Position numbers and translations under genes: made by a program. Below are positions 46,020-61,120 of a stretch of 64,000 nt of DNA, piece by piece. Source of the stretch: Thermoanaerobaculia bacterium. Its GTDB lineage: Bacteria; Acidobacteriota; Thermoanaerobaculia; Gp7-AA8. Numbering within the stretch: the stretch's first letter is position 1; the number at the start of each line of letters is the position of its first letter. The DNA lies in NCBI GenBank assembly GCA_036261885.1, contig DATAJY010000015.1:274877-338876 (forward strand), given 5' to 3'. The notes beneath the pieces were generated by a model that saw nothing but the letters and a program-made list of their open reading frames with translations, was not told the DNA's origin and searched no databases.

Positions 46020-46463
46020 ATGGCGTCTTCGATGGGCAATCTCTTCCATTCGTCGCGGCTGCGCTGGATCGCGGAGCGCGCGACCACCGCGGTGTTGGTG
46101 CTCGGTACGCTGGCGCTGCTCGTCTGGCCGCGCTCGGTCGAGCGCATCACCGGCGTGCGCGAATCGTCGCCGCTCGCCTCGCCGGACGATCTGCCGGCGC
46201 TTTCGAAAGACGACGCCACTCCATTTTTCCAGTCGCGCAATCAGGTGGAGATCCGTGTGGCGGAAGCGACGACGCTGCGGCAGTTCCTCGATCGCAATCG
46301 ACTGAACAAGCCGTACCAGCGTCAACAGATCACCGCCCAGCTCGGCAACACGAGTCCCGATGCGCCGATCGCGGCCGGCACCGTGTTCCGCTTGTCGCTC
46401 ACGCCGGTGGCGGTCGACGTGCCGGGCGCACGTCCGGCCACCGCCGCCGAGGAACAGCCGTGA
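46020..46463 (+). CDS. Small membrane-anchored protein (147 aa), first gene of the GTPase/SEDS/PBP operon
   Basis: TM helix AVLVLGTLALLVW. Its stop overlaps the next start (TGATG at 46461-46465). Confidence 0.55.
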   Translation: MASSMGNLFHSSRLRWIAERATTAVLVLGTLALLVWPRSVERITGVRESSPLASPDDLPALSKDDATPFFQSRNQVEIRVAEATTLRQFLDRNRLNKPYQRQQITAQLGNTSPDAPIAAGTVFRLSLTPVAVDVPGARPATAAEEQP

Positions 46464-47509
46464 TGCGGTTCCTCTGCAAGGACTGCTGGCTTTCGCACAG
46501 CGAAGAGACGCTGCTGGCGCGCTGCAAACGCTGCGAGGCGAACACGCGCATCCAGCGTTTCGAGCCGCTCAGTGCGAAAGCCGGTCGCGGCGTGGCGCGC
46601 GGGCCGCTGGTCTGCAGGATTCATCCGACCGAGCCGCTCGACATCTTCTGCGGCGATTGCGAGCGCGCGGTGCCGCCGCGCACGATCATCGGCGATCGCA
46701 GCATCGTGGCCATCCTCGGCGATACGGCTTCGGGAAAAACGTCGTATCTCTGGATCCTCAGCGAACAACTTCGCCGCGCGCACGACGGCATCTTCATTCG
46801 CCAGGCCCTCGGCGATTCGGACGAGCAGCTTGCGAAAGCGGCGCGCGCGATCTTCGAGCGCGGTCGCATGTCGGCGACCGAGCCGACCGACGCGGACGTT
46901 CGCAATTACGCGTGGGAGCTCGCTCTCGGCGAGCGCGCCACGACCGTGATCGCCTTTCACGACGCCGCGGGCGAGGTGTGGAACGAGCTCTCCGGACTCT
47001 CGCGCACCACCTACGATCGCTTCTATCGCTATCTCGATCTGGTCGGCAGCCTGATCTTCGCCATCGATGGCGCGCACGTCGCCGCGGCGCTCGATGCCGA
47101 GGCGCGTCGTGGTGTCACGCCGCCGCTCTCGCGGGAAGCGCAGGTACACGAGCTGGCCATCGTCGATGCCGTGGCACGGCGGTTTCGCGCGCGCGGCGAG
47201 CGCATTCCGGTCGCCGCGGTGCTGACCAAGGGCGACGTGCTGTGGGACCGCGACGACTATCAATGCTTTCGCCCCGACAGCGATGCGGACGGCGAGACGA
47301 TCGGCCGTGCGGTGCGCGAGTTGATGAACAGATCGGGACGCGTGGCGCTCGTGCGTGCGCTCGAAGAAACGTTCGCGCCGGTGACCTGGTTCGCGATCTC
47401 CGCGTTCGGTCATTCGGTGAGCGAGCCGCTGCGGATCGAAGACGTGCGGCCGTCGCGTGTCGCCGATCCGCTGCTGGCCCTGCTCGGCAATCTCGTCACG
47501 CGGACCTAG
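46463..47509 (+). CDS. Zinc-ribbon small GTPase (paralog 1)
   Basis: 348 aa. N-terminal CxxC...CxxC (CKDCWLS...CKRCEAN) plus a second Cys cluster (FCGDCERA). G1 ILGDTASGKTS. G3 VIAFHDAAGE. G4 LTKGD. Confidence 0.8.
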   Translation: MRFLCKDCWLSHSEETLLARCKRCEANTRIQRFEPLSAKAGRGVARGPLVCRIHPTEPLDIFCGDCERAVPPRTIIGDRSIVAILGDTASGKTSYLWILSEQLRRAHDGIFIRQALGDSDEQLAKAARAIFERGRMSATEPTDADVRNYAWELALGERATTVIAFHDAAGEVWNELSGLSRTTYDRFYRYLDLVGSLIFAIDGAHVAAALDAEARRGVTPPLSREAQVHELAIVDAVARRFRARGERIPVAAVLTKGDVLWDRDDYQCFRPDSDADGETIGRAVRELMNRSGRVALVRALEETFAPVTWFAISAFGHSVSEPLRIEDVRPSRVADPLLALLGNLVTRT

Positions 47510-47511
47510 CG

Positions 47512-49212: not shown

Positions 49213-51938
49213 CGTTGTACCGGATCGAGCACGCGCTGGTGATGGACACCGACGACGTGCCGGGCCGCGGCGGCTACGCCGTGACCGGCATCTCGCCTCG
49301 CGTCTCGCCGGCCGAGCGCTCGTTCATCGCCGGCAACTTCGGCATCAGCGATTACCTGCACGATCCGAAAACCGAGAACCGCATTTTCTATGCGGTGTTC
49401 CGCATTCCCGGCGGCCGTCGCGCGTTCGTGCGCCGCTTCGCGCGCGGTACGGAGCTGCGCCGCAACAACACGCAGCGCCGCCTCGTCGTGCATACGCTGC
49501 TGCTCGATGACGACGTCTGGCAGGAACTGCACGCGTTGCCGTGGCTGCTGCTCAACGCGAGCGTACGACTCGAAGGCGCAACGTCGTGGGATCGTCTGCG
49601 TGCCGACGTTCCGTGGACCGATGACGGCTCGACGCTGCCGGCGCTCGAATGGGACAGCAGCGACGGAGCGGCCGCGAATGCCTGGAAGCGTCTCACCGAT
49701 CGCCTCGGCCTCATCGAGCATGGCGAGCCGCGCGATCTCATCGCGCGCATCCTCACCGCGATGTCGGCGCGCGCCCGCGTCGCGCTGCCGCAGGATGCCG
49801 GCTGGGAGTGGGCCACGATGCTGGCGTGGTCGATGTTGCCGCGCCACGACCGCGATGACCTCGGCTGGACGCAGCACGATTCGATGAATCTCACCGGCAT
49901 CGCGTTCGCGCTCGCCAACGTGCCGGGCGGAGACTTTCACGCATCGCAGGTGCAGCCGGCGAATTTCGCGCACGAGCTCGTGCAGATGAATGTCGAGTCC
50001 GAACGCTCGTGGCTCGATCTGCAGGGCCGCACGTCGCGGCACCCGTTGAGCGTGCGCCACGCCGGCGATCTCGAAAAGTGGGGGAAGTGGCGCAACGCGC
50101 TCCTCGATCTGCACACGCACATCCGCGGCTCGGAAGATGAAGTGGTGCGCTACATGCGCAAGCTCGCGCTGACCGTGAAGGCGAATCCGCGCGCGACGTG
50201 GATCGACGCCGAGGAAGTGCTGCGGCTGGTGTGGTCGAACGTGGCTCAGGACATTCGCGGCGGCGACGCCGTGGCGGTGACGCGGTGGGGACAGCGGCTG
50301 CGCGAAAGCGGGCTGGCCGACGTCGTCTTCGGCGCCGTGCCCGCGAAACACTGGCTCAACGCGGCGGCGAACGACATCGGCAGCGATGCCCTCGTCTGGT
50401 TCTTTCTCAGCGGCGGCGGCGAAGACGAGTCGGCGCGCGGCGCGCGTGCGGCCATCGCCGAATGGCTCGTCGAGACGCGCCTGCACGGCGTCACACCTGA
50501 GCGCGCCACGATGCTGGCGCAGCTGTTGTCGAACGATTACGCGCGGCCGCTCGTGCCGCTGCTCGAACAGTTGCTGGCCACACCCGAAGGGCTGGCCGCG
50601 CTCATCGAGTCCCTCGGCCGTCGCGAGCACGGCGGCCTGGAACTGCTGCATGCCGCGGCGCCGATCGTCGTTGCACGCGCGCATCCGAACGCGCGGGAGT
50701 TTCTGCGCGATCTCTTCGTGCCCCGCTTCGAGCGCACGCGCATCGACGCGAAGCTGGCCCGCGCCATCGCCCTGCTCGTTCGCGACGATGCCGCCACGCT
50801 GCTGCAGTTTCTCGCGCGCGTGCCGACCGACGTCGCCGGTCCGGTGGCGATGTCGCTCGCGCAGGCGGGGCAGCCGGCCAGCGTCTGGCTCGACGTGCTG
50901 TTGCGCATGGCGAAGTCGATCGACGAAGAGAACGACGCCGGCGGCGCGCGCGACTTCGCCGAGATGATGCGCGCGCTCACCGCACGCGAGCCGCTGCTCG
51001 ACGGCGCGATGTCGCGATTCATCGACTTCGTCGCGACCGAACGCCCGCGCGCCCGCGAGTCGATGCGGTCCATCGTCGCGTTGCTGCGCCCCGTCTGGCC
51101 GCAGGGCGGCAGCAAATTCGGGGCCGCGTTGATCGCGCTTCTGCAGCGGGCGCCGAATGCCATCGCGTGGGAAGAGCTCGTCGTCGCGTACGCGAACGAA
51201 CAACGCGCGAAACGGCCCGACGACGTGTCGGAGCTCGCCTCGGTCTGGTGGTGTCTCGTCGAGCCGGATCTGGCCACGCGGAGCGGCGCGCTGCTCGACG
51301 TCATCCGCGGCGACGGCCTTCGCCGTCTCACGGCGCACTGGTCGAAGAAGGTCGGCACGCTGTCGCCGTCTCCCGTGGCCGACAAGCTGCTGGCGCTGGT
51401 GCAGCATCACTCCGATTCGTTCGAGGTCGAGCGCGATCTCGCCTCGCGCGACGTCCGGCACGGCGTGGCGAACGTGCAGACGCTCAATCGTCTCGAGGCC
51501 GCGCTGGCGCGTGTCCATGCAGCGAAAGGATCGCGCCTGTTCGTCGACGACGCACGCGTGTTTCTCGGAGACGGACCGGCCACGCGCGCGGTGCGGCTGC
51601 TGAAAGTGCTTTCGTCCGACGACGTCCATCCGACTGTCCGTCTGGCGTTCCTGCAGCATCTCCTTCCCGAGGTACTGGCGTCACTCCGGAAGGGAGACTT
51701 CGAGGAAGTGAAGCAGCAGACGCGCGAGGAAGATCTGCTCGGACTCGGGGTGGTCGTGCGGCTCGCGTACGCCGTCGGGGCGCGCGCGAGCGGCAGTACG
51801 AGCGCCGGCTTCGAGGCGGTGTGGGTGCGCAACAAACGCAGCGATGCGCTCGATGCATTGCAGGCCGGACGCGCCACGCGCGGTCCGCTGCGCTGGCTCA
51901 CGAGCAGGATGAGGAGCGATGGCCCGGTACAGATGTGA
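49209..51938 (+). CDS. Large (909 aa) predominantly alpha-helical (ARM/HEAT-like) hypothetical protein
   Basis: ATGA overlap with the upstream stop. Leu/Ala/Arg-rich helical repeat composition across ~800 aa. No catalytic motif recognised. Confidence 0.65.
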   Translation: MTLYRIEHALVMDTDDVPGRGGYAVTGISPRVSPAERSFIAGNFGISDYLHDPKTENRIFYAVFRIPGGRRAFVRRFARGTELRRNNTQRRLVVHTLLLDDDVWQELHALPWLLLNASVRLEGATSWDRLRADVPWTDDGSTLPALEWDSSDGAAANAWKRLTDRLGLIEHGEPRDLIARILTAMSARARVALPQDAGWEWATMLAWSMLPRHDRDDLGWTQHDSMNLTGIAFALANVPGGDFHASQVQPANFAHELVQMNVESERSWLDLQGRTSRHPLSVRHAGDLEKWGKWRNALLDLHTHIRGSEDEVVRYMRKLALTVKANPRATWIDAEEVLRLVWSNVAQDIRGGDAVAVTRWGQRLRESGLADVVFGAVPAKHWLNAAANDIGSDALVWFFLSGGGEDESARGARAAIAEWLVETRLHGVTPERATMLAQLLSNDYARPLVPLLEQLLATPEGLAALIESLGRREHGGLELLHAAAPIVVARAHPNAREFLRDLFVPRFERTRIDAKLARAIALLVRDDAATLLQFLARVPTDVAGPVAMSLAQAGQPASVWLDVLLRMAKSIDEENDAGGARDFAEMMRALTAREPLLDGAMSRFIDFVATERPRARESMRSIVALLRPVWPQGGSKFGAALIALLQRAPNAIAWEELVVAYANEQRAKRPDDVSELASVWWCLVEPDLATRSGALLDVIRGDGLRRLTAHWSKKVGTLSPSPVADKLLALVQHHSDSFEVERDLASRDVRHGVANVQTLNRLEAALARVHAAKGSRLFVDDARVFLGDGPATRAVRLLKVLSSDDVHPTVRLAFLQHLLPEVLASLRKGDFEEVKQQTREEDLLGLGVVVRLAYAVGARASGSTSAGFEAVWVRNKRSDALDALQAGRATRGPLRWLTSRMRSDGPVQM

Positions 51939-53016
51939 GAACTGCAACGAGCTCCGCGACGCGGCGATCTGCCCGAAGTGCGGCGCCGACACGCATCGTC
52001 TCGACGAGCAGGCGAGGGACGATCGCAGCACGCCGTCGCTCGACGATCTCGCGTCGCGCGTGAGTCAGCGCGCCGCGGCCACGGAAGCGCCGAAGCCGGC
52101 GCCCGCGCCGCTGCCGGCCGCGCCGCCGCCGGCTCCCGCGGCGCAGCCGCATTCGCAGGCCGTGCCGCCGAGCACGATCATCGGTCTCGACGAATTCCAC
52201 GCGCTGCTCGATCGCGGCACCGAGGCGGTGATCATCTGCGGCGCCGCGCAGACGGGCAAATCGGAGATCGCGGCCGGATACATCCGCGCGAACACGGTCT
52301 ATCGCGGCAAGGCGCAGAACCTCACGTTGCGCGCGGTACTGCGCACCGATTACGCGCTCGGCGGCACCGCGCCCGACGAAGTCTGGTACCAGATCATCGA
52401 CGACAAGAAAGCGTTTCTCGATCCCTCGGGCGAGTTCTTTCGCCGTCTCTCGCCCGATGAGCGAATCCGCTACGGGCTGCCCGATGTGACCGAGGAGAAC
52501 TTTCAGTTCGTGCAGCGCGCGGTGAGCAGACTGGCCGGCATCGTCGTCGTCGTCGATCTCACCTCCGCGATCGATCCGCGCGCCTCGGCGCCGTGGCGCC
52601 GGCAGGAAGACGATCTGAAGTTCGTCCTCTCCGCGCTGCGCTGGCTGCGCTGGGATCACACGGCCCGCCCTGATGCGATCGGGCTGTCGACGAACATCGC
52701 GCAACGGGTGTCGATGTTTCCTCGTATCGACAAGCGGGTGCTCGTGCTTTTCTCGAAAGCGGATCAACTGCCGAAATACACGAATCAGACGCCGCTCGAC
52801 TTCGCGCGGCAGCGGCTGCCGGTGCTCCACGCCGCGCTGATGACGCACGCGAAGCGCTTTCGCTACGACTTCTGCAACACGATGATCAAGACCGAGAGCG
52901 GTGATCAGGCCGTCGATCCTTGCGGCGTGTTGCTGCCGGTGAACTGGCTGCTCGATGACTCGTTCGACTGGCTGCCGCTGCAACTGCCGACGAGCCTCAT
53001 CGGAGGCGGACAGTGA
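51919..53016 (+). CDS. Zinc-ribbon small GTPase (paralog 2)
   Basis: 365 aa. MARYRCENCNELRDAAICPKCGAD zinc ribbon. G1 IICGAAQTGKSE. G3 FLDPSGE. G4 FSKAD. 20-nt overlap with the upstream gene. Confidence 0.8.
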   Translation: MARYRCENCNELRDAAICPKCGADTHRLDEQARDDRSTPSLDDLASRVSQRAAATEAPKPAPAPLPAAPPPAPAAQPHSQAVPPSTIIGLDEFHALLDRGTEAVIICGAAQTGKSEIAAGYIRANTVYRGKAQNLTLRAVLRTDYALGGTAPDEVWYQIIDDKKAFLDPSGEFFRRLSPDERIRYGLPDVTEENFQFVQRAVSRLAGIVVVVDLTSAIDPRASAPWRRQEDDLKFVLSALRWLRWDHTARPDAIGLSTNIAQRVSMFPRIDKRVLVLFSKADQLPKYTNQTPLDFARQRLPVLHAALMTHAKRFRYDFCNTMIKTESGDQAVDPCGVLLPVNWLLDDSFDWLPLQLPTSLIGGGQ

Positions 53017-54821
53017 AATCGAAGGGGAAGCGGCAACTGCAATCTCCCGATCGCGTGTGGTTCCGCGCCGCGCTCGCGGGCACGGTCCTTCTCGCCGCGT
53101 CGCTGGCGTGGTGGTTCTACGCGCATCAGGTCTCGAAGCGGAGCATCGAAGGGGCGCTCACCGCCGGCGCGCGCGAAGAGCTGGCCGCGTTGCCGGTGCC
53201 GGCGATCCGGACCGCGGAAGTGGAACGCTCGTGGGTCGCGGAAGGATTTTCGAGCGAGTCGCTCGTCGCGCCGGTCGGGCCGATGCCGTGTGCCGGTGTC
53301 GTCGACGCCGTGGCCCCGGCCGATCAGAACGTTCTGCGCGAAGCGCTGGCCGCCGCCGCGCAGCCGGATGCCGACGTGCGCATCGAACAGCTGGCGTCGA
53401 TCCACGACGGCGCGCCGCGCAACCTTCTGGTTGCGCAAATGCTCGGCACCGCGCTGGTCGAGGAAGGGCGCTATCCGGAGGGGGAGAGCGTGCTCACCCG
53501 TGGGCTCGAGCAATCGGGTGAGGACGAGACCATCATCCGCGCCGCGCGCGTCAACACGCAGCTCGATCTCGACGATCTCTCCGTCTCGACCGTCATTCAC
53601 CTGCACCACGCCCTCGGCGTCGCGCGGCTCTCGCAGTCGTCCGCCGAGCCGCCGTGGGTCTCGCTCAAGAACGTCATCGGCTCGGTGAAGCCGCTCGCGA
53701 AACGGCGGCTGCTCGGCACGACGCGCGGCCAGCCGGCGTGGAGCCGTCTGCTCATCGCCGCGCCCGGCTGCGCACCGAATGCGTCCCCGCGCGCGCTGTC
53801 GACGTACGACCTCTTCAACAACCTCGTGGTCGGCTACATGCGCGGCACGTTCACCGGCACGAATCGCGATCGCGACCGCGAGTTCTCACGGCCGCGCAAG
53901 AACTATCCGGGCGCGATCCACAAACTCCTGCTCGTCCAGGTCGGACGTGCGAAGGCGAACGACTGGGCCAATGAGGCGCAGCTCTGGGCACTCTCCAACG
54001 TCGAGCAGATCATCGACTGGCGCATGCCCGACGACGCGCGGCTCGCGTTCAATTCCGTGCAGGTCATCGACTGGTGGACCGCGCCGGAACGCTGTCCCGC
54101 CGATGCCTGCACGCCGCAGCTGCTCGGCGAGATCAATAAGGTTCGCGATCAACTCGTCGAGCAGGTGTTCCGGCGCCGCAACGTCGATGAAGAACAGCGC
54201 GGCGCATTCGCTCGCGGTGCCGTGCGACTGCTCGCCACCTCTTCGCTCGATCGCTCGCGCATCGCCGATGCCGCGACCGCGATTCGCGAGTGGCTGCCGC
54301 CCGCGGAACGCCGCACGCTCGACGATCTGCTGAACGCCGATGCCGCGCGCCGCGCCATGCCGCGCCATCTCTTCGCGCCGCAAGCGGCGGACGCGCCGAA
54401 CGCGGATGACGCGCCGCCGCCGGCCGAGCCGCCGTACGCGAAGCTCGGCGCGCGCGCCGACAAATGGCGCGCCGCGGCATTGACGGATGTCGCCGCCATG
54501 GCCGCGAAATGGGCCTCGCAGCGTCCGCCCGCGGAACAGCGCGCCGCGCTCGTGGCCATCCGCCAGCTGCTCGGCGGCGCGGAGGCGCCGCCGGAACTGC
54601 TGCAGCTCGAACGGCAACGCTCGTTCTTCGACCGGCTGCGGTTGCGCATCGTCGCGTCGAAGGCGTACTGGGCTTTCCTGGCGATCGTTCTCGGCCTCTC
54701 GATCTGGTTCGTATTGCTTTGGATTCTCGTGCATGTGCGCGAGGCGCGGCTGCTGCGCGTGTCGCTCTACAACGTCGAACACGAGTACCTCGCGGGGATC
54801 GAGCGCGACCCGCGCCGCTGA
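53013..54821 (+). CDS. Membrane-associated helical protein (602 aa) with N- and C-terminal TM segments
   Basis: GTG start overlapping the upstream stop. TM AALAGTVLLAASLAWWFY. C-terminal TM AYWAFLAIVLGLSIWFVLLWILVHV. The central region is helical and repeat-like. Confidence 0.65.
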   Translation: MKSKGKRQLQSPDRVWFRAALAGTVLLAASLAWWFYAHQVSKRSIEGALTAGAREELAALPVPAIRTAEVERSWVAEGFSSESLVAPVGPMPCAGVVDAVAPADQNVLREALAAAAQPDADVRIEQLASIHDGAPRNLLVAQMLGTALVEEGRYPEGESVLTRGLEQSGEDETIIRAARVNTQLDLDDLSVSTVIHLHHALGVARLSQSSAEPPWVSLKNVIGSVKPLAKRRLLGTTRGQPAWSRLLIAAPGCAPNASPRALSTYDLFNNLVVGYMRGTFTGTNRDRDREFSRPRKNYPGAIHKLLLVQVGRAKANDWANEAQLWALSNVEQIIDWRMPDDARLAFNSVQVIDWWTAPERCPADACTPQLLGEINKVRDQLVEQVFRRRNVDEEQRGAFARGAVRLLATSSLDRSRIADAATAIREWLPPAERRTLDDLLNADAARRAMPRHLFAPQAADAPNADDAPPPAEPPYAKLGARADKWRAAALTDVAAMAAKWASQRPPAEQRAALVAIRQLLGGAEAPPELLQLERQRSFFDRLRLRIVASKAYWAFLAIVLGLSIWFVLLWILVHVREARLLRVSLYNVEHEYLAGIERDPRR

Positions 54822-54828
54822 CGGAGAA

Positions 54829-57588
54829 ATGATGCTGAACTGGACCAGCGTACTGCTGCTCGTGGGACCGGTGGTCCTGCTGCTGATGACGCTTCGCCAC
54901 AACGACGCGCGCCGCCCGGCCGCGTTCCCCGGCCTGCTCTTCGTCTACGTGCTCTGCGCCGCGACGCCGCTCGTCTTCGCGTTGCTGTGGCGGCTCGATG
55001 CCACGCGCGCGTCGATCGAGCTGCATGGCATCGCCTTTCGTACGAGCGGCGCGAACGCGGTGCAGAAGGAGATTCGCGAGCGGCGTGCGAACAGCGGCCG
55101 CATCGTCATCGGCGATCCGGTCTCGCGCCGGACGCGCGCGCAGCAGCGCACCTTCGGCACACTGCACTTCACACCGGCGAAGGCGAGTGCCAGCGGCGCG
55201 CTGCGCATCGATCTCCCGCCGCGCGAACGCCGCTCCGGCCTGATCTCGACGAACGCGACCGGAATCCTCGGCGCGGAGTTGCTGCAGGACGGCGACTCGA
55301 TCTGCATCGGCGGCAGCTGCTGGACGTACGACCAGGGCGATCGCTCGTTCACGCACGCGAAAAACACGATCGCGATTCCGGCCCGTCAGGCCGAACTGCC
55401 GGGACTGGACTGGAGCTTCACGCTTCCGTTCGCGAAACCGATCTCCGCCGGACTGCGCACCTGGTCGGTCGATTTTCTGGCGCGGCAGAGCGGCGCGATC
55501 GCACCGGAGCGCCGGCTGCGCTCGTTCATCGCCCATTCGAATCCTGGTGCCGCGCTGCGTCTCGTCGCACTCGACGAAGACGTGAACCTCGTGCGCAACG
55601 GGGCCCGCGTGCAGACGCCGGTCCGCTTCGACGTCGAGGACGGCGCACGCGTCGCCTTCTACTCCTTGCCGGGCGAGTCGGCGCAGTTCGCCGCCCCCGG
55701 CATCGCCGAGCGTCGCAGCATGATCTATCGCGCCGGCGAGCGCAGCTTCGTGCTCGATCTCGACACGCCCGAGATTCACACGCTGACGATCGACGAACTG
55801 CAGGCGCTCGAGCTGGCGCAGGAGAAAGGGGCAACGCGCAAGAAAATCGCGCTGGCGATGGGCGATGCGGAGCTCGTCGATCGCAGTCTCTATTTCAACG
55901 GTCTCAGCGAATCGGTGGCTGTTGAATCGAATGCGCTGCTCGAGCTCTCGCGTTTCTTCCCGCGCGATTTCGCATCCGCCTTCCGCATCATTTCGCCGCG
56001 CGGACCGGTCGACGCGCAACTCGGCCGCGTGCAGTGGATCGGCACGTCCGATCTCGCGGCCGTGCGGCTCGATGTGCTCCGTCCGCCGCTGCTCCTGCTC
56101 GCGCTCGGAATCGTGCTGCTGCTTTTCAAAGCGGGCGCGGCGTCGGCGATCGGATTGACGGCGACGCAGGCGCTGATGGCCGGCGCAATCGAGTTGCTCT
56201 GCGGCATTCGCCTGCTGATGGGCTGGCGGGTCTGGGCCATGCCGCCGCACAAACTCGAGGCGGCCGAGCTGGCCATGGTGGCGTGGATGGCGCTGCCGTG
56301 GATCTTTCTTGCGGCGATGATCCCGCTGCGCTCGTTGCGCGACTGGCGTGACGCGCGCGTCTCCGCCGCACCGGCGCTGGCGGGGCTCGTCTTCTCCGCG
56401 GTCTTCTGCGCGCGCAGCGTCGCCGGCCCGACGAAATGGGTGTGGGTGCTCTGTCATCTGCTGCCGCTGCTGGCCGTGCTGCTGCGCACCGACGAAGCGC
56501 GCGGGCGATTCGCGAAGCTCGCCGCGCGCGTGAGAACGTGGACCGCGCGCTCGAAACGTTTCGATCCGGAGTTGCTGCCGATCGTCATCGCGGCCGTGCT
56601 CTTCACGCTCGTCCGTCTGATCCTCCTCGCGTTCGGCTGGAAGGAGTCGGCGAGCCTCGGCGTGCGCGTCTCGCTCAGCGTGCTGCACCTCCCCGCGGCC
56701 GTGATCCTGCAGGGCATTTTTCTCTGGCGCACGTGGCAGCGCGTCCTGAAGAACGGCCGATTGCTGAAGGCCGATCTCATCACCGCCGCGGTGATTCTCG
56801 TTTTCGTGTGGGGCTTGCCGGCGGCGATCACCAGCGACGTCGGTCTGGCACTGCTCAACGCGCCGCTGTTCGTGTTGATGCTGCTCGCGATCAGCCGTCA
56901 CGCCGACGAGCGCGCCGGCCGCTGGATTCCACGCCTGCTCGTGGCGATGGTCGTGCTGCTGCTGGCCGGCGGCCCGCTCGCGCGACTGATCCTGCCGCTG
57001 TTCGCCAGCGATGAACTGCTGCTCTCCGCGGCGTCCGATTCCAACTTCGCGCGCGTGCTGCACTTCGCCGCGCCCGAACGCCTGCAGGAGCTGGCGACGA
57101 AACGCGGCGAGTCGCTGGCCATCACCTCCGCGATTCTGCAGAGCTACATCAGCTCCGGCTTCTTCGGCCGCGGCTACGGCCGCTCGGAGGTCAGTCCGCA
57201 TCTCGGCGATACCGCGTTGCGCGACTTCGCCCCCGCGGTCTTCATCGCCGCGGAGTGGGGATTCGCCGGCACCGTCGCCGCGCTGCTCATCTATCTGCTG
57301 TTCGGCATCATCGCCAGCGAGTGGCTGCCGTGGAGCGCCTCGCGTGTCGACGGGCATCCCGGCCCGGCCATCGCGTTCGTCGCCGCGGCCACGATCGCGG
57401 TCTCGAGCATCTACATGATCCTCGCGAACCACGAGCTGCTGCTGCTCACCGGCAAGAATGCGTACCTCTTCGGACTCGATTCGGCCGGCGACGTGATCGA
57501 GATGATCGTGCTGATTCTGCTCATCGCCTGCGGCTCGAGCGTCGTGCGCGAGGAGTCGCAGGCACTCACGTACGGAGACTACGCATGA
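54829..57588 (+). CDS. SEDS (RodA/FtsW)-like polytopic membrane protein with ~450-aa N-terminal extension (possible FHA-like segment)
   Basis: 919 aa. ATG 54829 (MMLNWTSVLLLVGPVVLLLMTL). More than 10 TM helices in the C-terminal half. SEDS signature RDFAPAVFIAAEWGFAGTVAALLIYLLFGII (compare RodA TDFIFAVLAEELGLVG...). N-terminal extension has ...LISTNATGILGAELLQDGDSICIGGSCWTY (FHA-like pattern). Confidence 0.75.
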   Translation: MMLNWTSVLLLVGPVVLLLMTLRHNDARRPAAFPGLLFVYVLCAATPLVFALLWRLDATRASIELHGIAFRTSGANAVQKEIRERRANSGRIVIGDPVSRRTRAQQRTFGTLHFTPAKASASGALRIDLPPRERRSGLISTNATGILGAELLQDGDSICIGGSCWTYDQGDRSFTHAKNTIAIPARQAELPGLDWSFTLPFAKPISAGLRTWSVDFLARQSGAIAPERRLRSFIAHSNPGAALRLVALDEDVNLVRNGARVQTPVRFDVEDGARVAFYSLPGESAQFAAPGIAERRSMIYRAGERSFVLDLDTPEIHTLTIDELQALELAQEKGATRKKIALAMGDAELVDRSLYFNGLSESVAVESNALLELSRFFPRDFASAFRIISPRGPVDAQLGRVQWIGTSDLAAVRLDVLRPPLLLLALGIVLLLFKAGAASAIGLTATQALMAGAIELLCGIRLLMGWRVWAMPPHKLEAAELAMVAWMALPWIFLAAMIPLRSLRDWRDARVSAAPALAGLVFSAVFCARSVAGPTKWVWVLCHLLPLLAVLLRTDEARGRFAKLAARVRTWTARSKRFDPELLPIVIAAVLFTLVRLILLAFGWKESASLGVRVSLSVLHLPAAVILQGIFLWRTWQRVLKNGRLLKADLITAAVILVFVWGLPAAITSDVGLALLNAPLFVLMLLAISRHADERAGRWIPRLLVAMVVLLLAGGPLARLILPLFASDELLLSAASDSNFARVLHFAAPERLQELATKRGESLAITSAILQSYISSGFFGRGYGRSEVSPHLGDTALRDFAPAVFIAAEWGFAGTVAALLIYLLFGIIASEWLPWSASRVDGHPGPAIAFVAAATIAVSSIYMILANHELLLLTGKNAYLFGLDSAGDVIEMIVLILLIACGSSVVREESQALTYGDYA

Positions 57589-60503
57589 CGCCGCGCGGAA
57601 AAATGCTGCTGACCATCTTCGGCATCGCCGTCGTCGCCCTGCTGTGGTGGCGCCAGCGTAACGAGCCGTTGTCGTACTACTCGTCGCGCAGCTACGTGCA
57701 GCGGACGAACGATCTCATTCGCCGCGGCGCGCTCCGTTTCGATTGCGCGGCCGATGAGATCCGGATGACCGATCGTGCGAACGATGCGGAACGGGCGTGG
57801 TTCGCGGCCAGCTATCTGCAGAACGACGTCGAGCTGTTCAATCGCAATCGCGAGTTGTTCGGACACTTCTTCGTCGTCTCCGACTGCGAGCTGCGCGAGA
57901 TCAATCCATTCCTGCGCACCATCCGGCTGCCGTTCGCGAAGTCGACCGAATGGCTCGGCAACATCGAGTACACCGGCCCCGGCTCCGATGCGGCACTGAT
58001 CTCGGCGAACGGCCGCACGCTGGCCATCGAACGGAATGCGGCGGCGGATGGGCTGGCCGGGATCCGTGAGGATGTGCGCACCCGCGTCGGCGATTCCGAG
58101 AGTCTCAGCGGCAGCGTGTTGCACATCGATTTCGCCGGACGCGGGCAGACGCCGGGCGTCGAAGTGCACAACGTCGAAGGGACGGCCATCGTCGAACAAC
58201 GCGTGAAGCGCGGCCAGGCCGCGGAGGTCCGTCTCCTCGGCAACGCCATGAACGAAGGACGGATCACGAAGCTCGAAACCGGAGACTGGCTGCATCTCTC
58301 CGCCGAGTCGCCGGTGCCGCGTTCCGAAACGTTTCTCTACAGCGCCGAACGCCGTTACGAACGCCTGAGCACCGTCCGCACGCGCAACGCGCGGCGCGAG
58401 CGCGTCTTCACCGAAGACGATCCGCTGCTGCAGTGGGTCGGCGGCGATGAAGGGGAGGAGATGCTCACGTTCGGCGAGGCGCTCGCGCGCAGCGTCACGA
58501 ACGCACTGCAGCAGATCGATCCGATGCGCGCCGACGAATTGCGCGAAGGCTTCGACGTGCAGCTCAGCATCGATCGTCCGCTGCAGTCGAAGCTCGACGC
58601 GACGCTGGCCAGTCACGCGAACCGGCTCGTGAACGACGTTGCCGCGGGCGATCCGTTCGCCGCCTCGGTGACGATCATGAACGGCAGGACCGGCGAAGTG
58701 CTCGCGGCCGCGAGCTTTCCCGGCGAAGCCGATCTCGAGGCGATGACCGGCGTTTCGGAGGACGAGCGCCGGCGGCTGCTCGTCAATCACAACTTCAAAC
58801 GGCATCCGATCGGCTCGGCCGGCAAGCCCTTCTTTTACGCCGCGGCCGCGACGCGTCATCCGTTCCTGCTCGACCTCACGGTCGCGCCGCACCTGCCGGT
58901 CGAGCGTCCCGATGGCGGCGAAGGGGAACGCGAGGTGCTGCAGTTCTTCCTCGGCCGCGACTACAAGCTCTGGCCGCACGCCGATGCACCGATCGACATG
59001 CAGTCGGCCATCGAGCGCTCGTGCAACAAATTCACGGTGGAACTGGCGACGCTCGCGCTCGCCGCGCCGCGCGATCTGACGGAACGCACGCTCACGCGTC
59101 CACTCGCTCAGGTCTTCGCGCGACAGGCGAACGTGGTCTGGCCGAAGCCGGGCGTTGTCTTCGATGGTCCGCGCATCAACGGGCAGCCGGTCGATTTTCC
59201 GATCGACCTCGGCGTCTACATGAAGGACGACGGACAGCCGGTCGGCCCGCGCGAAGAGACCACCGCGGTGGTCACGCCGGGCACGCTCGATCGCATCGAC
59301 GAGGCGCCGTTCATCGAAGCATTCGGCGATCTCACCGGCGTGCGGACGTACGCCGGTCTCGACGCGCCGAACGTGCCGAAGGAAGGGAACGAAGGGCTCA
59401 CGCGCACGGCTCTTCACTACGACCTCCGCCCCTGGTCGAAGCTGCTGACCATGCTGATGCAGGGAGAGGATGAAGAGCACGCGTGGAAAGTGCGCGCCGC
59501 GCTGCAATCCGTTTCGCCGGAACGGGTGAACCTCTCGCTCAATCAGGTCACCGAGTTCCGCACGGAGCTCGTCTCGCTGCTCCTCGGCGGCTCGACGTCG
59601 CAATGGACGAACGTGCAGCTCGCCGAAGCGTTGTCGCGACTCGTCACCGGCCGGCAGATCGAAGCGTCGATGGTCCACACGGTGCGTCCGCGCAAAGGAG
59701 CGGTCGAAGAGCCGATCGCCGTGGCGCCGCCGCTGTCGCCACAGACGATCTCTCCGGAAGCGCGGACCACCGTCTTGCGCGGCATGAGACGCGTGATCCT
59801 CGGCGCGCACGGCACGGCCTTGCCGATGGCCGCGCGCGTGCACGAGCTCGAACGGCAATTTCCCGGATACAACGTGGCGGTCTTTTCGAAGACCGGCTCG
59901 CCGACCGTGCAGCGTCCGGAGAGCAAGCCGACCGGCGAGATCCTGCGGCAGCTCGTGCGCCGCGGCTATCTCTTCTATGACGGGAAGCAGCTCGTGGTGT
60001 CGACCGATCGGCAGAAGGCGGCCGTGCCATACGCCGCGCGCGGCACGAAGGGTCGGGCCGCGTTTCTCGACGCGCTCACGCGCGCCTCGCGCATCGCCGC
60101 ACGTCAGCTGGGCCGCAGCGCCGGTCCGCGCACCATTCCGCGCATCGCCTCGTACGCCGATCGCTTCTCGCGCTATCGCAGCCGGCTGGTGTTCGTTTCG
60201 CCGGCCGCGGTGCGGCTCGATGAGGCAGCCTCGTCGCCGATCCACGTCGTGGCCGGCTCGCTGGTGCTCAATCGCGATCACTCGATTTTCGACAAGACGC
60301 AGCAGGCCGATTCGAGTGCCGCGTACGTGATGTCGATCGTGAAGTGGCGCGGCAGCGGCGAGATCCCGACGCCCGAGGAGCTGGATCAGCCCGATGCGCG
60401 CGTCGTGACGGCGGTTTTCTATCTCGACATCGGACCAGGGAGCGCGGTGGCGGTGGAGCTCGCACGGACGATCGTGCCGGAGCTCGTGCCGCTTCTGCAA
60501 TGA
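57585..60503 (+). CDS. Class-B penicillin-binding-protein-like transpeptidase (972 aa, membrane-anchored, with long insertions)
   Basis: ATGA overlap with the SEDS-like gene. TM MLLTIFGIAVVALLWW. SxxK IGSAGKPFF. SxN ERSCNKF. KTG VAVFSKTGSPT. VTIMNGRTGEVLAAASFP is typical of the bPBP pedestal/TP junction. Confidence 0.8.
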   Translation: MTPRGKMLLTIFGIAVVALLWWRQRNEPLSYYSSRSYVQRTNDLIRRGALRFDCAADEIRMTDRANDAERAWFAASYLQNDVELFNRNRELFGHFFVVSDCELREINPFLRTIRLPFAKSTEWLGNIEYTGPGSDAALISANGRTLAIERNAAADGLAGIREDVRTRVGDSESLSGSVLHIDFAGRGQTPGVEVHNVEGTAIVEQRVKRGQAAEVRLLGNAMNEGRITKLETGDWLHLSAESPVPRSETFLYSAERRYERLSTVRTRNARRERVFTEDDPLLQWVGGDEGEEMLTFGEALARSVTNALQQIDPMRADELREGFDVQLSIDRPLQSKLDATLASHANRLVNDVAAGDPFAASVTIMNGRTGEVLAAASFPGEADLEAMTGVSEDERRRLLVNHNFKRHPIGSAGKPFFYAAAATRHPFLLDLTVAPHLPVERPDGGEGEREVLQFFLGRDYKLWPHADAPIDMQSAIERSCNKFTVELATLALAAPRDLTERTLTRPLAQVFARQANVVWPKPGVVFDGPRINGQPVDFPIDLGVYMKDDGQPVGPREETTAVVTPGTLDRIDEAPFIEAFGDLTGVRTYAGLDAPNVPKEGNEGLTRTALHYDLRPWSKLLTMLMQGEDEEHAWKVRAALQSVSPERVNLSLNQVTEFRTELVSLLLGGSTSQWTNVQLAEALSRLVTGRQIEASMVHTVRPRKGAVEEPIAVAPPLSPQTISPEARTTVLRGMRRVILGAHGTALPMAARVHELERQFPGYNVAVFSKTGSPTVQRPESKPTGEILRQLVRRGYLFYDGKQLVVSTDRQKAAVPYAARGTKGRAAFLDALTRASRIAARQLGRSAGPRTIPRIASYADRFSRYRSRLVFVSPAAVRLDEAASSPIHVVAGSLVLNRDHSIFDKTQQADSSAAYVMSIVKWRGSGEIPTPEELDQPDARVVTAVFYLDIGPGSAVAVELARTIVPELVPLLQ

Positions 60504-61120
60504 AGAACGGCATCGTCGCGCTGCTTCTCTTCTCGCTGCAACTCGGCGATCTGCGGCGCAGCGTGCCGGTCTCGGAGCGGCCGCTCGCCGAGACGCCGCG
60601 CACGCCGACGCTCGTGGCGATGAAACACTTTCCGCCGCAGACGCGGCCGCGATCGCGTGCGTTCTTCCGCAGCCCCGCGCATGAAGACGCGGCGCTGATC
60701 GCCGTCACCGGCACGCGCCGCAACAACGTTCCGGTCGCCCGCGACTTCCCGCGCCTGTGGCGTCGCGCCGCTCCGTCGCGGCGCATCTACATCGCCTTTG
60801 CGCGCCGCGACCTCGCGGCCGCGCAGAACGTGGAGCGTGCGCTGGCGCGCCGCGGATACCACTGCTTCATTTTTCTGGCCTCCGCGCGCAACAACCCCGC
60901 GTGGGCCGACTCCGTCGAGCTCGGACGCTACTACCGCGAAGCGCGCACGCGCCTCGTGCTCGATTCGCGCAACGCCCGCGCCGCGAACGGCGTGCGCCTG
61001 GAACTGCTCGCGCAGGGGCGCAAGTCCTGCTGCAAACGCTGCTACTTCATGAACGGCATGCTCGCCGGATGCGACGCCATCACCTGCGGGACGCAGTGCG
61101 CGAAAGCCCGCGGGGCCTGA
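60500..61120 (+). CDS. Small secreted/anchored protein with TIR-like core and Cys-rich C-terminus (speculative domain call)
   Basis: ATGA overlap with the PBP-like stop. Hydrophobic N-terminus IVALLLFSLQL. RRIYIAFARRDLAAAQNVERALARRGYHCFIF resembles a TIR beta-A/alpha-A start. C-terminal CCKRCYFMNGMLAGCDAITCGTQC. Confidence 0.5.
   Translation: MKNGIVALLLFSLQLGDLRRSVPVSERPLAETPRTPTLVAMKHFPPQTRPRSRAFFRSPAHEDAALIAVTGTRRNNVPVARDFPRLWRRAAPSRRIYIAFARRDLAAAQNVERALARRGYHCFIFLASARNNPAWADSVELGRYYREARTRLVLDSRNARAANGVRLELLAQGRKSCCKRCYFMNGMLAGCDAITCGTQCAKARGA

What the first reader, a model, noticed from the sequence alone, without database searches (positions are those of the whole stretch)
57585..60503. 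Oversized class-B PBP-like protein with intact SxxK/SxN/KTG triad
The active-site triad is present in canonical order: S-A-G-K at ~aa 435, S-C-N at ~aa 490, and K-T-G at ~aa 760. The protein is 972 aa, with an N-terminal ~330-aa non-PBP region and long insertions between SxN and KTG. The Ser in SxxK is present, so it may be catalytically active. The divergence suggests a specialised transpeptidase or a beta-lactam-sensor-like module partnered with the giant SEDS protein.
Basis: seen in the sequence. Interest (0 to 1): 0.6.

Follow-up and report, generated by a model that had tools for sequence, protein, structure and literature searches.

The report
GTPase-linked giant SEDS–PBP cell-wall synthase pair
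The ORF is a real, very divergent penicillin-binding (transpeptidase-fold) protein with a fully conserved active site; it is always encoded next to an equally divergent cell-wall polymerase (SEDS) and after two zinc-ribbon GTPases, a combination I could not find described in the literature I searched.

Summary
ORF 57585..60503 (+) encodes a 972-aa protein with SxxK (S411-K414), SxN (S479-N481) and KTG (769-771). These motifs sit in a penicillin-binding fold. Pfam and NCBIfam PBP2 models match, the AlphaFold2 model has pLDDT 82.7, and the top Foldseek hits I examined are class B PBPs. S411, K414 and S479 are present in 196 of 196 full-length relatives; N481 and KTG are present in 194-195.

The upstream protein is a divergent SEDS glycosyltransferase that keeps both key acidic residues. 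The two genes overlap by ATGA. They are adjacent in every locus examined but one, and are fused into one protein in two distant relatives.

The pair ends a conserved, translationally coupled 8-gene cassette: a small membrane protein, a ZnR-ZnR DO-GTPase, a single-TM protein, a GAP1-N2-like protein, a second ZnR DO-GTPase, a TPR membrane protein, the SEDS-like protein and the PBP-like protein. The cassette occurs in Acidobacteriota and in giant sulfur Gammaproteobacteria.

Most likely this is an envelope-spanning, GTPase-switched glycan polymerase/cross-linker. Whether it serves defence or morphogenesis is unresolved. I rate it a new variant of known kinds. All evidence is computational.

The parts
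46020..46463 (+). g0b: small (about 147 aa) protein with one N-terminal TM segment and a conserved C-terminal domain. It is the first gene of the cassette.
   Evidence: GC3 is 0.81. It is conserved directly upstream of g1 in 11 loci, including Thiomargarita. Its stop overlaps the g1 ATG as TGATG. No Pfam family matched; there is only a faint LysM_OapA hint at E=0.2. The start codon is inferred.
46463..47509 (+). g1: DO-GTPase with two N-terminal zinc ribbons (348 aa)
   Evidence: PF19993 DO-GTPase2 matches at E=5.8e-12 and PF19975 DO-GTPase1 at 8.5e-6. The sequence shows two CxxC...CxxC ribbons, GDTASGKTS, DAAGE and TKGD motifs. It is colinear in all full-length loci.
47512..49212 (+). g2: 566-aa protein of unknown family with a single TM segment near aa 373-391
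   Evidence: Hydropathy supports the TM segment. Orthologues are present in the Acidobacteriota loci. In the Thiomargarita-type loci a non-homologous 322-aa gene occupies this position. No Pfam family matched.
49209..51938 (+). g3: 909-aa soluble protein with a GAP1-N2-like N-terminus
   Evidence: PF20013 GAP1-N2 matches 4 of 11 orthologues, best E=2.8e-5. hhalign of the g3 profile against the L035 protein gives E=6.6e-5 and probability 64%; that L035 protein itself hits GAP1-M and GAP1-N2. The window protein has no Pfam hit of its own.
51919..53016 (+). g4: second DO-type GTPase with one N-terminal zinc ribbon (365 aa)
   Evidence: It carries GAAQTGKS, DPSGE and SKAD motifs, with G108, G113, K114, D168, G171 and E172 invariant. 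Among 12 orthologues, 4 hit DO-GTPase2 and 5 hit zinc-ribbon models. It is the upstream gene most widely kept: it is found beside the SEDS-like and PBP-like genes in all but one locus of the distant clade (L001, L025-L029, L031-L033) and, by local HMM, in three more distant loci (L035-L037).
53013..54821 (+). g5: 602-aa TPR-containing protein with N- and C-terminal TM segments
   Evidence: TPR_19 matches 4 of 11 orthologues, best E=4e-7. Hydropathy and sequence support the TM segments. Conserved cysteines and the positive-inside rule suggest that the middle portion is periplasmic; this is inference.
54829..57588 (+). g6: giant SEDS-like glycosyltransferase (about 919 aa). It has two N-terminal TM helices, an all-beta domain of about 360 aa, three further TM helices and a 10-TM SEDS core.
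   Evidence: PF01098 is precomputed on about 12 homologues. TIGR02210 rodA matches at E=1.5e-3. The family profile hits T. thermophilus RodA 6bar at E=1.2e-3, over the catalytic loop. The AF2 model has pLDDT 80.6, and the top Foldseek hit is FtsW 8bh1_A with probability 0.98. D673 is conserved in 90/90 sequences, position 802 is D or E in 90/90, and E609 is conserved in 89/90. Residue numbers refer to the translation starting at 54820.
57585..60503 (+). g7: the finding. A 972-aa PBP-fold protein with an N-terminal membrane anchor (about aa 3-26), a family-specific N-domain (about aa 30-300) and a transpeptidase-fold domain (about aa 320-972) carrying two large insertions.
58815..58826 (+). SxxK motif (S411-A-G-K414), containing the predicted acylation serine
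   Evidence: The motif is at this position. S and K are conserved in 196/196 sequences. It aligns with the SxxK of N. gonorrhoeae PBP2.
59019..59027 (+). SxN motif (S479-C-N481)
   Evidence: The motif is at this position. S is conserved in 196/196 and N in 194/196 sequences.
59889..59897 (+). KTG motif (K769-T-G771)
   Evidence: The motif is at this position. K, T and G are conserved in 195, 194 and 195 of 196 sequences. The AF2 model places it on a strand, E763-771.
60500..61120 (+). g8: 206-aa protein with a hydrophobic N-terminus and a weak TIR-like domain. It is a lineage-specific add-on, not part of the conserved cassette.
   Evidence: Its ATG overlaps the g7 stop as ATGA. TIR_2 matches at E=5e-3 here and 1e-3 in the L005 orthologue, both below the gathering score. 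It is found only in the closest relatives, L004 and L005.

Best explanation
g7 is a catalytically competent PBP-fold acyl-serine enzyme, most likely a D,D-transpeptidase. It is anchored in the inner membrane by one N-terminal helix, with the rest of the protein in the periplasm. It works as the obligate cross-linking partner of the SEDS-type glycan polymerase encoded immediately upstream (g6), in the manner of RodA-PBP2 or FtsW-FtsI.

This pair belongs to a separate, deep-branching family. Both members are oversized, with large beta-rich domains that are probably periplasmic, and the PBP domain carries two conserved insertions.

The pair is the periplasmic end of a conserved, co-translated cassette. 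The cytoplasmic part of that cassette is a GTP switch made of two zinc-ribbon DO-GTPases and a GAP1-N2-like protein. Three membrane proteins (g0b, g2 and the TPR protein g5) are placed to connect the two sides.

Proposed mechanism: GTP binding or hydrolysis by the GTPase/GAP1 module changes the state of the membrane adaptors, and this licenses or positions glycan polymerisation by g6 and cross-linking by g7.

What is shown:
- the PBP fold, the catalytic motifs and their invariance;
- the SEDS homology and its conserved acidic residues;
- gene order, overlapping reading frames, fusion of the two proteins in relatives, and the identity of the GTPases.

What is inferred:
- enzymatic activity and lipid II/peptidoglycan as the substrate;
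- membrane topology;
- control by the GTPases;
- the biological role, whether phage or conflict response or specialised morphogenesis.
For: PBP fold and active site:
- PF00905 matches at E=4e-5 and TIGR03423 at 1.8e-12.
- PF00905 matches 16 of 22 family members.
- The family profile hits PDB class B PBPs at E=1.7e-8.
- The AF2 model has pLDDT 82.7, and its top Foldseek hits are C. difficile PBP2, P. aeruginosa PBP2/PBP3 and E. coli PBP3.
- The catalytic residues are conserved in 194-196 of 196 sequences.
- The C54/C101 pair co-occurs (108 sequences with both, 82 with neither), which suggests a periplasmic disulfide.

SEDS partner:
- Sequence, profile and fold matches to RodA and FtsW.
- Invariant D673 and an acidic residue at 802, which aligns with RodA D255.

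Coupling of g6 and g7:
- The ATGA overlap in the window, and a 4-7 nt overlap in most of the other loci.
- Adjacency in all but one of the loci that extend past the SEDS gene.
- Natural fusion proteins P0293 and P0296, which carry both modules with their motifs intact.
- Pairwise-identity correlation of r=0.993 between g6 and g7.

GTPase context:
- DO-GTPase2 matches g1 at E=6e-12, and both g1 and g4 carry GKT/S, DxxGE and [ST]KxD motifs.
- There is GAP1-N2 and GAP1-M evidence for g3 and its positional equivalent.
- The cassette is colinear in Thermoanaerobaculia and other Acidobacteriota and in Thiotrichaceae/Thiomargarita.
- The g4-type GTPase persists beside the pair in nearly all the more distant loci.
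Against: - No biochemical data exist, and every carrier seen is an uncultured MAG or metagenome contig.
- I had no access to the model coordinates, so the active-site geometry was not checked.
- The canonical pedestal domain (PF03717) was not detected in 0 of 22 members. How g7 contacts g6 is therefore unknown.
- The SEDS evidence for g6 is individually weak (E about 1e-3; Foldseek E=0.04) and convincing only in sum.
- The window's own g3 has no direct GAP1 hit.
- One locus, L019, has g1, g4, g5 and g6 but no g7.
- Conservation of the catalytic triad would also be expected for a covalent sensor or a hydrolase.
- The conflict-system role of DO-GTPase/GAP1 systems is itself only a computational prediction (PMC7159879).
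Confidence: 0.6

Rival explanations
1. The PBP domain is the sensor, an input rather than an output. In this reading g7 binds or is acylated by muropeptides, D-Ala-D-Ala-containing ligands or beta-lactams in the periplasm, as BlaR1/MecR1 or PbpP-type sensors are. It then reports envelope damage or invasion to the cytoplasmic GTPase/GAP1 switch.
For: Covalent sensors also keep SxxK and KTG intact, so the invariance seen does not discriminate. The DO-GTPase/GAP1 systems are proposed to need a sensing component (PMC7159879). There is a weak NCBIfam similarity of aa 721-833 to class D OXA enzymes at E=0.0085. The large family-specific domains could be ligand-binding modules.
Against: g7 has no cytoplasmic or protease signalling domain; no M56 or other family was found in 22 members. 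Its nearest relatives by sequence and fold are synthetic class B PBPs, not BlaR or OXA. It is strictly coupled to, and sometimes fused with, a SEDS polymerase whose own catalytic acidic residues are invariant. That pattern points to synthesis.
Confidence: 0.12
2. g7 is an active PBP-fold enzyme but not a peptidoglycan cross-linker. It could be a D,D-carboxypeptidase, an endopeptidase or a beta-lactamase-like hydrolase. Alternatively, the g6/g7 pair could build or attach a different lipid-linked glycopolymer.
For: The two large conserved insertions (SxN to KTG 290 aa; KTG to the C-terminus 201 aa) and the undetected pedestal show that the active-site surroundings differ from those of known bPBPs. 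Identity to solved PBPs is only 10-16%. The SEDS core of g6 is also very divergent.
Against: The top 50 structural hits listed are penicillin-binding-fold proteins, almost all annotated class B transpeptidases. The KTG[ST] and SxN contexts resemble those of bPBPs. SEDS proteins characterised so far polymerise lipid II (my knowledge). The pairing logic is the same as for RodA-PBP2.
Confidence: 0.15
3. The pair is simply the organism's ordinary elongasome or divisome pair (a PBP2/RodA or FtsI/FtsW orthologue) that has diverged in Acidobacteriota.
For: JGI annotations name many relatives 'cell division protein FtsI/penicillin-binding protein 2'.
Against: The NCBIfam equivalog scores are far below their cut-offs: 46.6 against 455 bits for pbp2_mrdA, and 17.8 against 336.7 for rodA. 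No mre, mrd or dcw genes lie nearby in the window or in the loci examined. The same cassette occurs patchily in Acidobacteriota and in giant sulfur Gammaproteobacteria, which fits an accessory and probably horizontally transferred module. The constant neighbours are GTPases and GAP1, not MreBCD or FtsQLB.
Confidence: 0.03
4. The three motifs are chance tripeptides in a non-PBP fold.
For: None, beyond the low identity to known PBPs.
Against: as set out in the observation check.
Confidence: 0.01

Closest known systems
SEDS-class B PBP synthase pairs (RodA-PBP2, FtsW-FtsI, SpoVE-SpoVD)
   Same: A polytopic SEDS protein is encoded next to a bitopic PBP-fold protein carrying SxxK, SxN and KTG. The conserved SEDS acidic residues are present. 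The best sequence and structure matches are to PBP2, PBP3, RodA and FtsW.
   Different: Both proteins are about 2.5 times (SEDS) and 1.6 times (PBP) the usual size. The SEDS protein has five extra TM helices and an all-beta domain of about 360 aa. The PBP has an N-domain of about 300 aa with no detectable PBP_dimer pedestal, plus two large insertions in the catalytic domain. The pair sits in a GTPase/GAP1 operon, not in an mre/mrd or dcw cluster. Equivalog scores are about 10-fold below their cut-offs.
GAP1-N2-type DO-GTPase systems (Kaur, Burroughs, Iyer, Aravind 2020, eLife; PMC7159879)
   Same: Two paralogous TRAFAC GTPases carry the DxxGE signature and N-terminal zinc ribbons. A GAP1-N2-like protein follows a GTPase gene. 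Several TM components are present, which matches the paper's prediction that these systems act at the membrane or cell wall.
   Different: The themes described for these systems are FNIII repeats with tubulin, HSP70/GrpE or kinase/PP2C, mainly in Actinobacteria, Firmicutes, Planctomycetes, Verrucomicrobia and Chloroflexi. Here the partner genes are a constant SEDS-like/PBP-like pair, and the hosts are Acidobacteriota and Gammaproteobacteria. No FNIII protein was detected. The main text and the supplement held do not contain FtsW, RodA, transpeptidase, penicillin or lactamase.
Non-canonical SEDS/bPBP architectures surveyed by Garcia-del Portillo et al. 2025 (Microlife; PMC12516126)
   Same: That survey reports oversized GTases with outward-facing beta-sheet-rich regions, bPBPs without a pedestal, and chimeric GTase-TPase giants. 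These parallel g6, g7 and the fusion proteins P0293 and P0296.
   Different: The survey mined Pfam and InterPro architectures. Most members of this family carry no Pfam hit, so they would be largely invisible to it. The word GTPase does not occur in its text. Its chimeras sit beside mreB/rlmH or Ser/Thr kinase and phosphatase genes.
C. difficile PBP2 (PDB 7rcx/7rcw), the best structural match
   Same: It is a large class B PBP with extra modules around a transpeptidase core. Foldseek E is 9e-13 over about 750 aligned columns.
   Different: Identity is only 13% and the TM-score is 0.29-0.34. The genomic context is different, and none of the family-specific N-domain motifs (C54, W72, SYL, W123, GDW) are known from it.
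BlaR1/MecR1 and PbpP-type PBP-fold sensors
   Same: These are membrane-anchored extracytoplasmic PBP-fold domains that keep the acylation serine.
   Different: No M56 protease or other transducer domain is present. The fold relatives are bPBPs. g7 is strictly coupled to a polymerase.

Membership tests
Class B penicillin-binding protein (bPBP) | Penicillin-binding/transpeptidase fold (PF00905) | tested here: met
   PF00905 matches at E=4e-5, above the gathering score, and in 16 of 22 relatives. The PDB profile hit is at E=1.7e-8. Foldseek top hits are bPBPs, with TM-score up to about 0.6 normalised to the target TP domains.
Class B penicillin-binding protein (bPBP) | SxxK, SxN and KTG motifs in order | tested here: met
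   S411/K414, S479/N481 and K769-T-G. They are invariant in alignment A1 and conserved in 194-196 of 196 sequences.
Class B penicillin-binding protein (bPBP) | Single N-terminal membrane anchor with the catalytic domain outside the cytoplasm | tested here: met
   AF2 predicts helix 3-26 over the hydrophobic stretch MLLTIFGIAVVALLWW, preceded by R and K. A co-varying Cys pair fits a periplasmic location. This is a prediction only.
Class B penicillin-binding protein (bPBP) | N-terminal pedestal (PBP_dimer, PF03717) that contacts the SEDS partner | tested here: inconclusive
Class B penicillin-binding protein (bPBP) | Cognate SEDS glycosyltransferase partner | tested here: met
   The genes are adjacent and overlapping, colinear in all but one locus, and fused in P0293 and P0296.
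Class B penicillin-binding protein (bPBP) | D,D-transpeptidase activity and acylation by beta-lactams | not testable with these tools
   This needs Bocillin-FL labelling and lipid II cross-linking assays.
SEDS (FtsW/RodA/SpoVE, PF01098), for the partner g6 | 10-TM SEDS core with conserved periplasmic acidic residues (the 'PDxG' Asp, and the ECL4 Asp equivalent to T. thermophilus RodA D255) | tested here: met
   PF01098 is precomputed on about 12 homologues. TIGR02210 matches at E=1.5e-3. RodA 6bar matches at E=1.2e-3 with D802 aligned to D255. D673 is conserved in 90/90 sequences and position 802 is D or E in 90/90. FtsW 8bh1_A is the top fold hit with probability 0.98. Each line of evidence is weak on its own.
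DO-GTPase / GAP1-N2 system (PMC7159879) | TRAFAC GTPase of the DO-GTPase family with a Walker-B Glu, often with N-terminal zinc ribbons and often as two paralogues | tested here: met
   g1 hits PF19993 at E=5.8e-12. Among g4 orthologues, 4 of 12 hit PF19993 and 5 of 12 hit zinc-ribbon models. Both g1 and g4 carry DxxGE.
DO-GTPase / GAP1-N2 system (PMC7159879) | GAP1 protein (N, M and C domains) encoded after a DO-GTPase gene | tested here: inconclusive
   GAP1-N2 matches 4 of 11 g3 orthologues, best E=2.8e-5, but not the window protein itself. GAP1-M (25.1 bits against a cut-off of 24) and GAP1-N2 match the positional equivalent in L035. hhalign of g3 against that protein gives E=6.6e-5 and probability 64%. 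GAP1-C was not detected.
DO-GTPase / GAP1-N2 system (PMC7159879) | FNIII-repeat component, typical of GAP1-N2 systems | tested here: not met
   No fn3 hit was found in any cassette protein or in the orthologue sets. The all-beta domains of g6 and g7 were not resolved at fold level.
BlaR1/MecR1-type beta-lactam sensor | PBP-fold sensor domain fused to a TM zinc-protease (M56) transducer | tested here: not met
   No Peptidase_M56 or other signalling domain was found in g7 or in 22 relatives.

The most novel reading that the evidence does not exclude
A peptidoglycan synthase may be used as the regulated output of an immune-type NTPase switch. On a cytoplasmic trigger sensed through the DO-GTPase/GAP1 module, the dedicated SEDS-PBP machine would lay down or re-cross-link wall material on demand. 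That could seal off or fortify an infected or damaged cell. This would make cell-wall synthesis an effector of a bacterial conflict system, and it would be a fourth independently controlled SEDS-bPBP machine beside the elongasome, the divisome and spore-cortex synthesis. The lineage-specific, translationally coupled TIR-like gene g8, and the bona fide TIR protein near the fused variant in L034, would fit this reading.
Probability: 0.25. Interest if true: 0.85.

Novelty: new variant of a known kind. Interest (0 to 1): 0.66.

Why it matters
SEDS-bPBP pairs are the core cell-wall polymerases and major antibiotic targets. Only three functional classes are characterised: elongation, division and spore cortex. 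Each is steered by a cytoskeletal or regulatory system.

This family has at least 270 clusters at 50% identity with E<=1e-30, and almost none of its members are annotated. It would add a structurally distinct pair wired to a GTP switch of a type predicted to act in biological conflict.

If the pair is active, three things follow:
- It gives a handle on how GTPases can gate wall synthesis across the membrane.
- It gives an experimentally testable output for the uncharacterised DO-GTPase/GAP1 systems.
- It shows that the PBP fold tolerates large insertions around an invariant active site, which is relevant to beta-lactam recognition.

Its presence in the giant sulfur bacteria Thiomargarita and Achromatium and in soil Acidobacteriota raises questions about its role in unusual cell architectures.

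Tried and rejected
- PADLOC models gave no meaningful hit for any cassette protein. The system is therefore not a catalogued defence system.
- The eLife 2020 main text and the one supplement held do not mention FtsW, RodA, transpeptidase, penicillin or lactamase.
- Literature searches linking SEDS/bPBP to GTPase operons or to anti-phage defence found nothing relevant.
- The third homologous-protein search, with the A2 profile, returned the same 67 proteins and no distant ones.
- The idea that g0b is a LysM domain has only a faint hit (E=0.2 in 1 of 11 members). I did not adopt it.
- g8 as part of the conserved system is rejected: it occurs only in the closest relatives and its TIR hit is sub-threshold.
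- The Calx-beta giant protein upstream is not part of the system: it has no homologue in any related locus, and an inverted repeat separates it from g0b.
- Promoter and terminator scans at the cassette borders were uninformative.
- The mirror-tree correlation is highest for g6-g7 (r=0.993), but it is high for all cassette genes. It shows co-inheritance, not specific co-evolution.
- L019 lacks g7 after g6. This is a single unexplained exception in a MAG.

Full report
**Observation**

ORF 57585..60503 (+) is real and encodes 972 aa. Its codon-position GC is 0.69/0.48/0.84, which marks a coding frame in this roughly 67% GC window. Its ATG overlaps the stop of the upstream gene as ATGA. The three motifs lie at S411-A-G-K414, S479-C-N481 and K769-T-G771.

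**Is it a penicillin-binding fold?**

Yes. Several independent lines agree:
- Pfam Transpeptidase PF00905 matches aa 361-488 at E=4e-5, just above the gathering score.
- NCBIfam pbp2_mrdA matches aa 305-488 at E=1.8e-12. The score is 46.6 bits against an equivalog cut-off of 455, so this is a relative of PBP2 and not an orthologue.
- A profile of 22 family members hits PDB class B PBPs. The best is N. gonorrhoeae PBP2 at E=1.7e-8, and that alignment ends on the SxxK motif.
- An AlphaFold2 model built on that alignment is confident, with mean pLDDT 82.7 and pTM 0.82.
- The top 50 Foldseek PDB hits listed are penicillin-binding-fold proteins, almost all annotated class B PBPs. They include C. 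difficile PBP2 at E=9e-13, P. aeruginosa PBP2 and PBP3, and the E. coli PBP3 TP domain with a target-normalised TM-score of about 0.6.

**Family and conservation**

A word-indexed search found 92 relatives. All are about 920-1000 aa. Most come from Thermoanaerobaculia/Acidobacteriota MAGs, and one comes from Candidatus Thiomargarita nelsonii. An exhaustive HMM search of 1.84 billion cluster representatives found 1309 relatives at E<=1e-3, 665 at E<=1e-10 and 270 at E<=1e-30. Most of those listed are 800-1000 aa; the shorter entries look like fragments. One of them is from Achromatium sp. WMS3.

In 196 full-length sequences, S411, K414 and S479 are conserved in 196 of 196. N481 is conserved in 194, and K, T and G in 195, 194 and 195. 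This is the signature of selection on catalysis or covalent acylation.

Other features are also conserved:
- an N-terminal domain with C54, W72, S76-Y-L, N86, C101, W123 and G233-D-W;
- the 'LLGG..W.N.QLAE..RL..GR' stretch at 667-690, which resembles the G-x-G...TPLQ.A motif of PBPs (my reading).

C54 and C101 co-occur: 108 sequences have both, 82 have neither and 6 are mixed. This suggests a disulfide, and so a periplasmic location.

**Anatomy of the protein**

Reading the AF2 secondary structure against the alignments gives this layout:
- a membrane anchor helix at aa 3-26;
- an alpha/beta region at aa 34-106 and an all-beta region at aa 127-295;
- the transpeptidase-fold domain from about aa 320.

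The SxN-to-KTG distance is 290 aa, and 201 aa follow KTG. In E. coli PBP3 and PBP2 the corresponding figures are about 135-160 and about 90 (my knowledge). So there are two conserved insertions, at roughly aa 495-640 and aa 780-905.

The canonical pedestal domain (PF03717) was not detected in any of 22 members. Whether the N-domain is a remodelled pedestal could not be resolved, because the fold libraries were unavailable and model coordinates are not exposed.

**The upstream partner**

The upstream ORF has its real start at about 54829 and encodes about 919 aa. It is a very divergent SEDS protein:
- PF01098 is precomputed on about 12 of its 67 relatives.
- TIGR02210 rodA matches at E=1.5e-3.
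- A family profile hits T. thermophilus RodA (6bar, 6pl5) at E=1.2e-3, exactly over the catalytic extracellular loop. There D802 aligns with RodA D255.
- The AF2 model has pLDDT 80.6, and its top PDB fold hit is FtsW from the FtsWIQBL complex, with probability 0.98 and E=0.04.

Across 90 full-length relatives, D673 (in 'TSDxG', matching the SEDS 'QPDxG') is invariant. Position 802 is always D or E, and E609 is conserved in 89 of 90. The C-terminal 'TGKN...GLDS..D' motif is also invariant at T877, G878, N880, S888 and D891; K879, G885 and D887 are conserved in 88, 78 and 78 of 90.

From the helix order and the positive-inside rule I infer 15 TM segments in all. Two N-terminal TM helices come first. 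They are followed by an all-beta domain of about 360 aa (aa 63-420) facing the periplasm, then three more TM helices, then the 10-TM core. This topology is inference.

**Coupling of the two proteins**

- The g6 stop and the g7 start overlap by 4 nt here and by 4-7 nt in most of the other loci.
- The two genes are adjacent in all but one of the loci that extend past the SEDS gene.
- Two distant relatives, P0293 (1762 aa) and P0296 (1781 aa), are single proteins. Each has the SEDS-like module at the N-terminus and the PBP-like module at the C-terminus, with SATK, SNN and KTG intact. This is a Rosetta-stone argument for a physical complex.
- Pairwise-identity matrices of g6 and g7 correlate at r=0.993. 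All cassette genes correlate highly, so this shows co-inheritance only.

The pair closes a conserved, translationally coupled cassette running from 46020 to 60503:
- g0b is a small TM protein.
- g1 is a DO-GTPase with two zinc ribbons. PF19993 matches at E=5.8e-12, and it carries GKT, DxxGE and TKGD motifs.
- g2 has a single TM segment and belongs to no known family.
- g3 is a 909-aa protein. Its orthologues hit GAP1-N2 in 4 of 11 cases, best E=2.8e-5. Its profile aligns with a protein in L035 that hits GAP1-M and GAP1-N2 (E=6.6e-5, probability 64%).
- g4 is a second zinc-ribbon DO-type GTPase.
- g5 is a TPR protein with a TM segment at each end.
- g6 and g7 follow.

The genes g0b through g7 are colinear in Thermoanaerobaculia and other Acidobacteriota loci and in Thiotrichaceae/Thiomargarita loci. 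In the latter, a non-homologous 322-aa gene stands in place of g2.

A more distant clade (L001, L025-L033) and still more distant loci (L035-L038) keep a g4-type GTPase next to the SEDS-like and PBP-like genes. The GTPase is free or fused to a larger protein, and it is absent in only one of these loci. The core that recurs throughout is therefore GTPase + SEDS-like + PBP-like. Flanking genes differ between loci, so the cassette behaves as a portable module.

Double zinc-ribbon DO-GTPases together with GAP1-N2 define one of the 'GTPase-centric' systems that Kaur et al. predicted to be conflict systems acting near the membrane or cell wall (PMC7159879). Their described themes are FNIII with tubulin, HSP70 or kinase/PP2C. 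FtsW, RodA, transpeptidase, penicillin and lactamase do not occur in the main text or the supplement held.

A 2025 survey of non-canonical SEDS/bPBP architectures describes oversized GTases with outward beta-rich regions, pedestal-less bPBPs and GTase-TPase chimeras. It does not mention GTPases (PMC12516126). It relied on Pfam and InterPro hits, which most members of this family lack. I found no paper that links the two themes.

**How it most likely works**

What is shown:
- a PBP fold with an invariant acylation site;
- a SEDS homologue with invariant acidic residues;
- obligate genetic coupling of the two;
- two DO-type GTPases and a GAP1-like protein in the same co-translated unit.

What is inferred: g6 polymerises a lipid-linked glycan, most likely lipid II, and g7 cross-links its stem peptides in the periplasm. 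The cytoplasmic GTPase/GAP1 module acts as a switch. Its state would be relayed across the membrane by g0b, g2 and g5. This is analogous in logic to FtsZ/FtsA acting through FtsN/FtsQLB on FtsWI, or MreB acting through RodZ/MreCD on RodA-PBP2.

The biological role is open. Four things favour a conflict or stress role:
- the kinship with predicted conflict systems;
- the patchy distribution;
- a translationally coupled, weakly TIR-like gene (g8) in this lineage;
- a bona fide TIR protein near the fused variant in L034.

Three things count against it:
- the cassette is constant, not effector-variable;
- there are no PADLOC hits;
- no evident defence-island context was seen.

**Rivals**

- A covalent periplasmic sensor (confidence 0.12).
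- A hydrolase, or an enzyme acting on a non-peptidoglycan polymer (0.15).
- An ordinary elongasome or divisome orthologue (0.03). This is contradicted by the scores, the context and the distribution.
- Chance motifs (0.01 or less).

**Verdict**

The feature is best described as a new variant built from known kinds: a distinct, large and essentially unannotated SEDS-PBP family embedded in a DO-GTPase/GAP1 operon. All evidence is computational, and all carriers seen are uncultured.

Noticed in passing
window 60500-61120 (+): g8 is a 206-aa ORF whose ATG overlaps the g7 stop as ATGA. It has a hydrophobic N-terminus and a sub-threshold TIR_2 match (E=5e-3; 1e-3 in the L005 orthologue). It is present only in the closest relatives, L004 and L005.
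   Followed up: partly
L034 883-11432: The natural fusion of the SEDS-like and PBP-like modules (P0296, 1781 aa) is followed by two unknown proteins (556 and 589 aa) and then a 511-aa protein with a strong TIR_2 domain (E=6e-19).
   Followed up: partly
window 46020-46463 (+): g0b is a small TM protein conserved upstream of the first GTPase in 11 loci, including Thiomargarita. Its conserved domain looks like a beta-alpha-alpha-beta unit, but it has only a faint LysM_OapA hit (E=0.2 in 1 of 11).
   Followed up: partly
window ~45921-45965: A perfect 13-bp inverted repeat, GGATCGAGGATTG ... CAATCCTCGATCC, lies in the short gap between the end of the Calx-beta gene (45914) and the start of the cassette. 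It could be a terminator hairpin without a T-tract, or an operator.
   Followed up: no
window 39807-45914 (+): A 2035-aa protein with 11 Calx-beta domains (E=4e-178) and a right-handed beta-helix region. It is not conserved next to the cassette in other loci.
   Followed up: partly
window 15823-21111 (-), with 21101-23038 (-) and 23039-23710 (-): A 1762-aa protein with DUF3686 ('ATPase involved in DNA repair', E=7e-206), DUF7902 and an AAA domain. Its start overlaps the end of a 645-aa ORF with no Pfam family, and a 224-aa ORF that I did not scan lies just beyond. This may be another uncharacterised multi-gene system.
   Followed up: no
L019 9416-15484: This MAG locus has g1, g4, g5 and the SEDS-like gene, but no PBP-like gene in the 2.9 kb downstream. 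The next ORF is unrelated. It is the only exception to the g6-g7 pairing.
   Followed up: partly
L018, L022 (Ca. Thiomargarita nelsonii); P0171 (Achromatium sp. WMS3): Apart from soil Acidobacteriota, the named carriers are giant sulfur Gammaproteobacteria with unusual cell architecture.
   Followed up: no
window 26465-30300 (-): A LysM + FecR-domain protein lies next to a Ser/Thr kinase carrying a Cache domain, and two LytS-type histidine kinases are nearby (23837-25810 on the - strand, 30264-31472 on the + strand). This is an envelope-signalling neighbourhood unrelated to the cassette by conservation.
   Followed up: no
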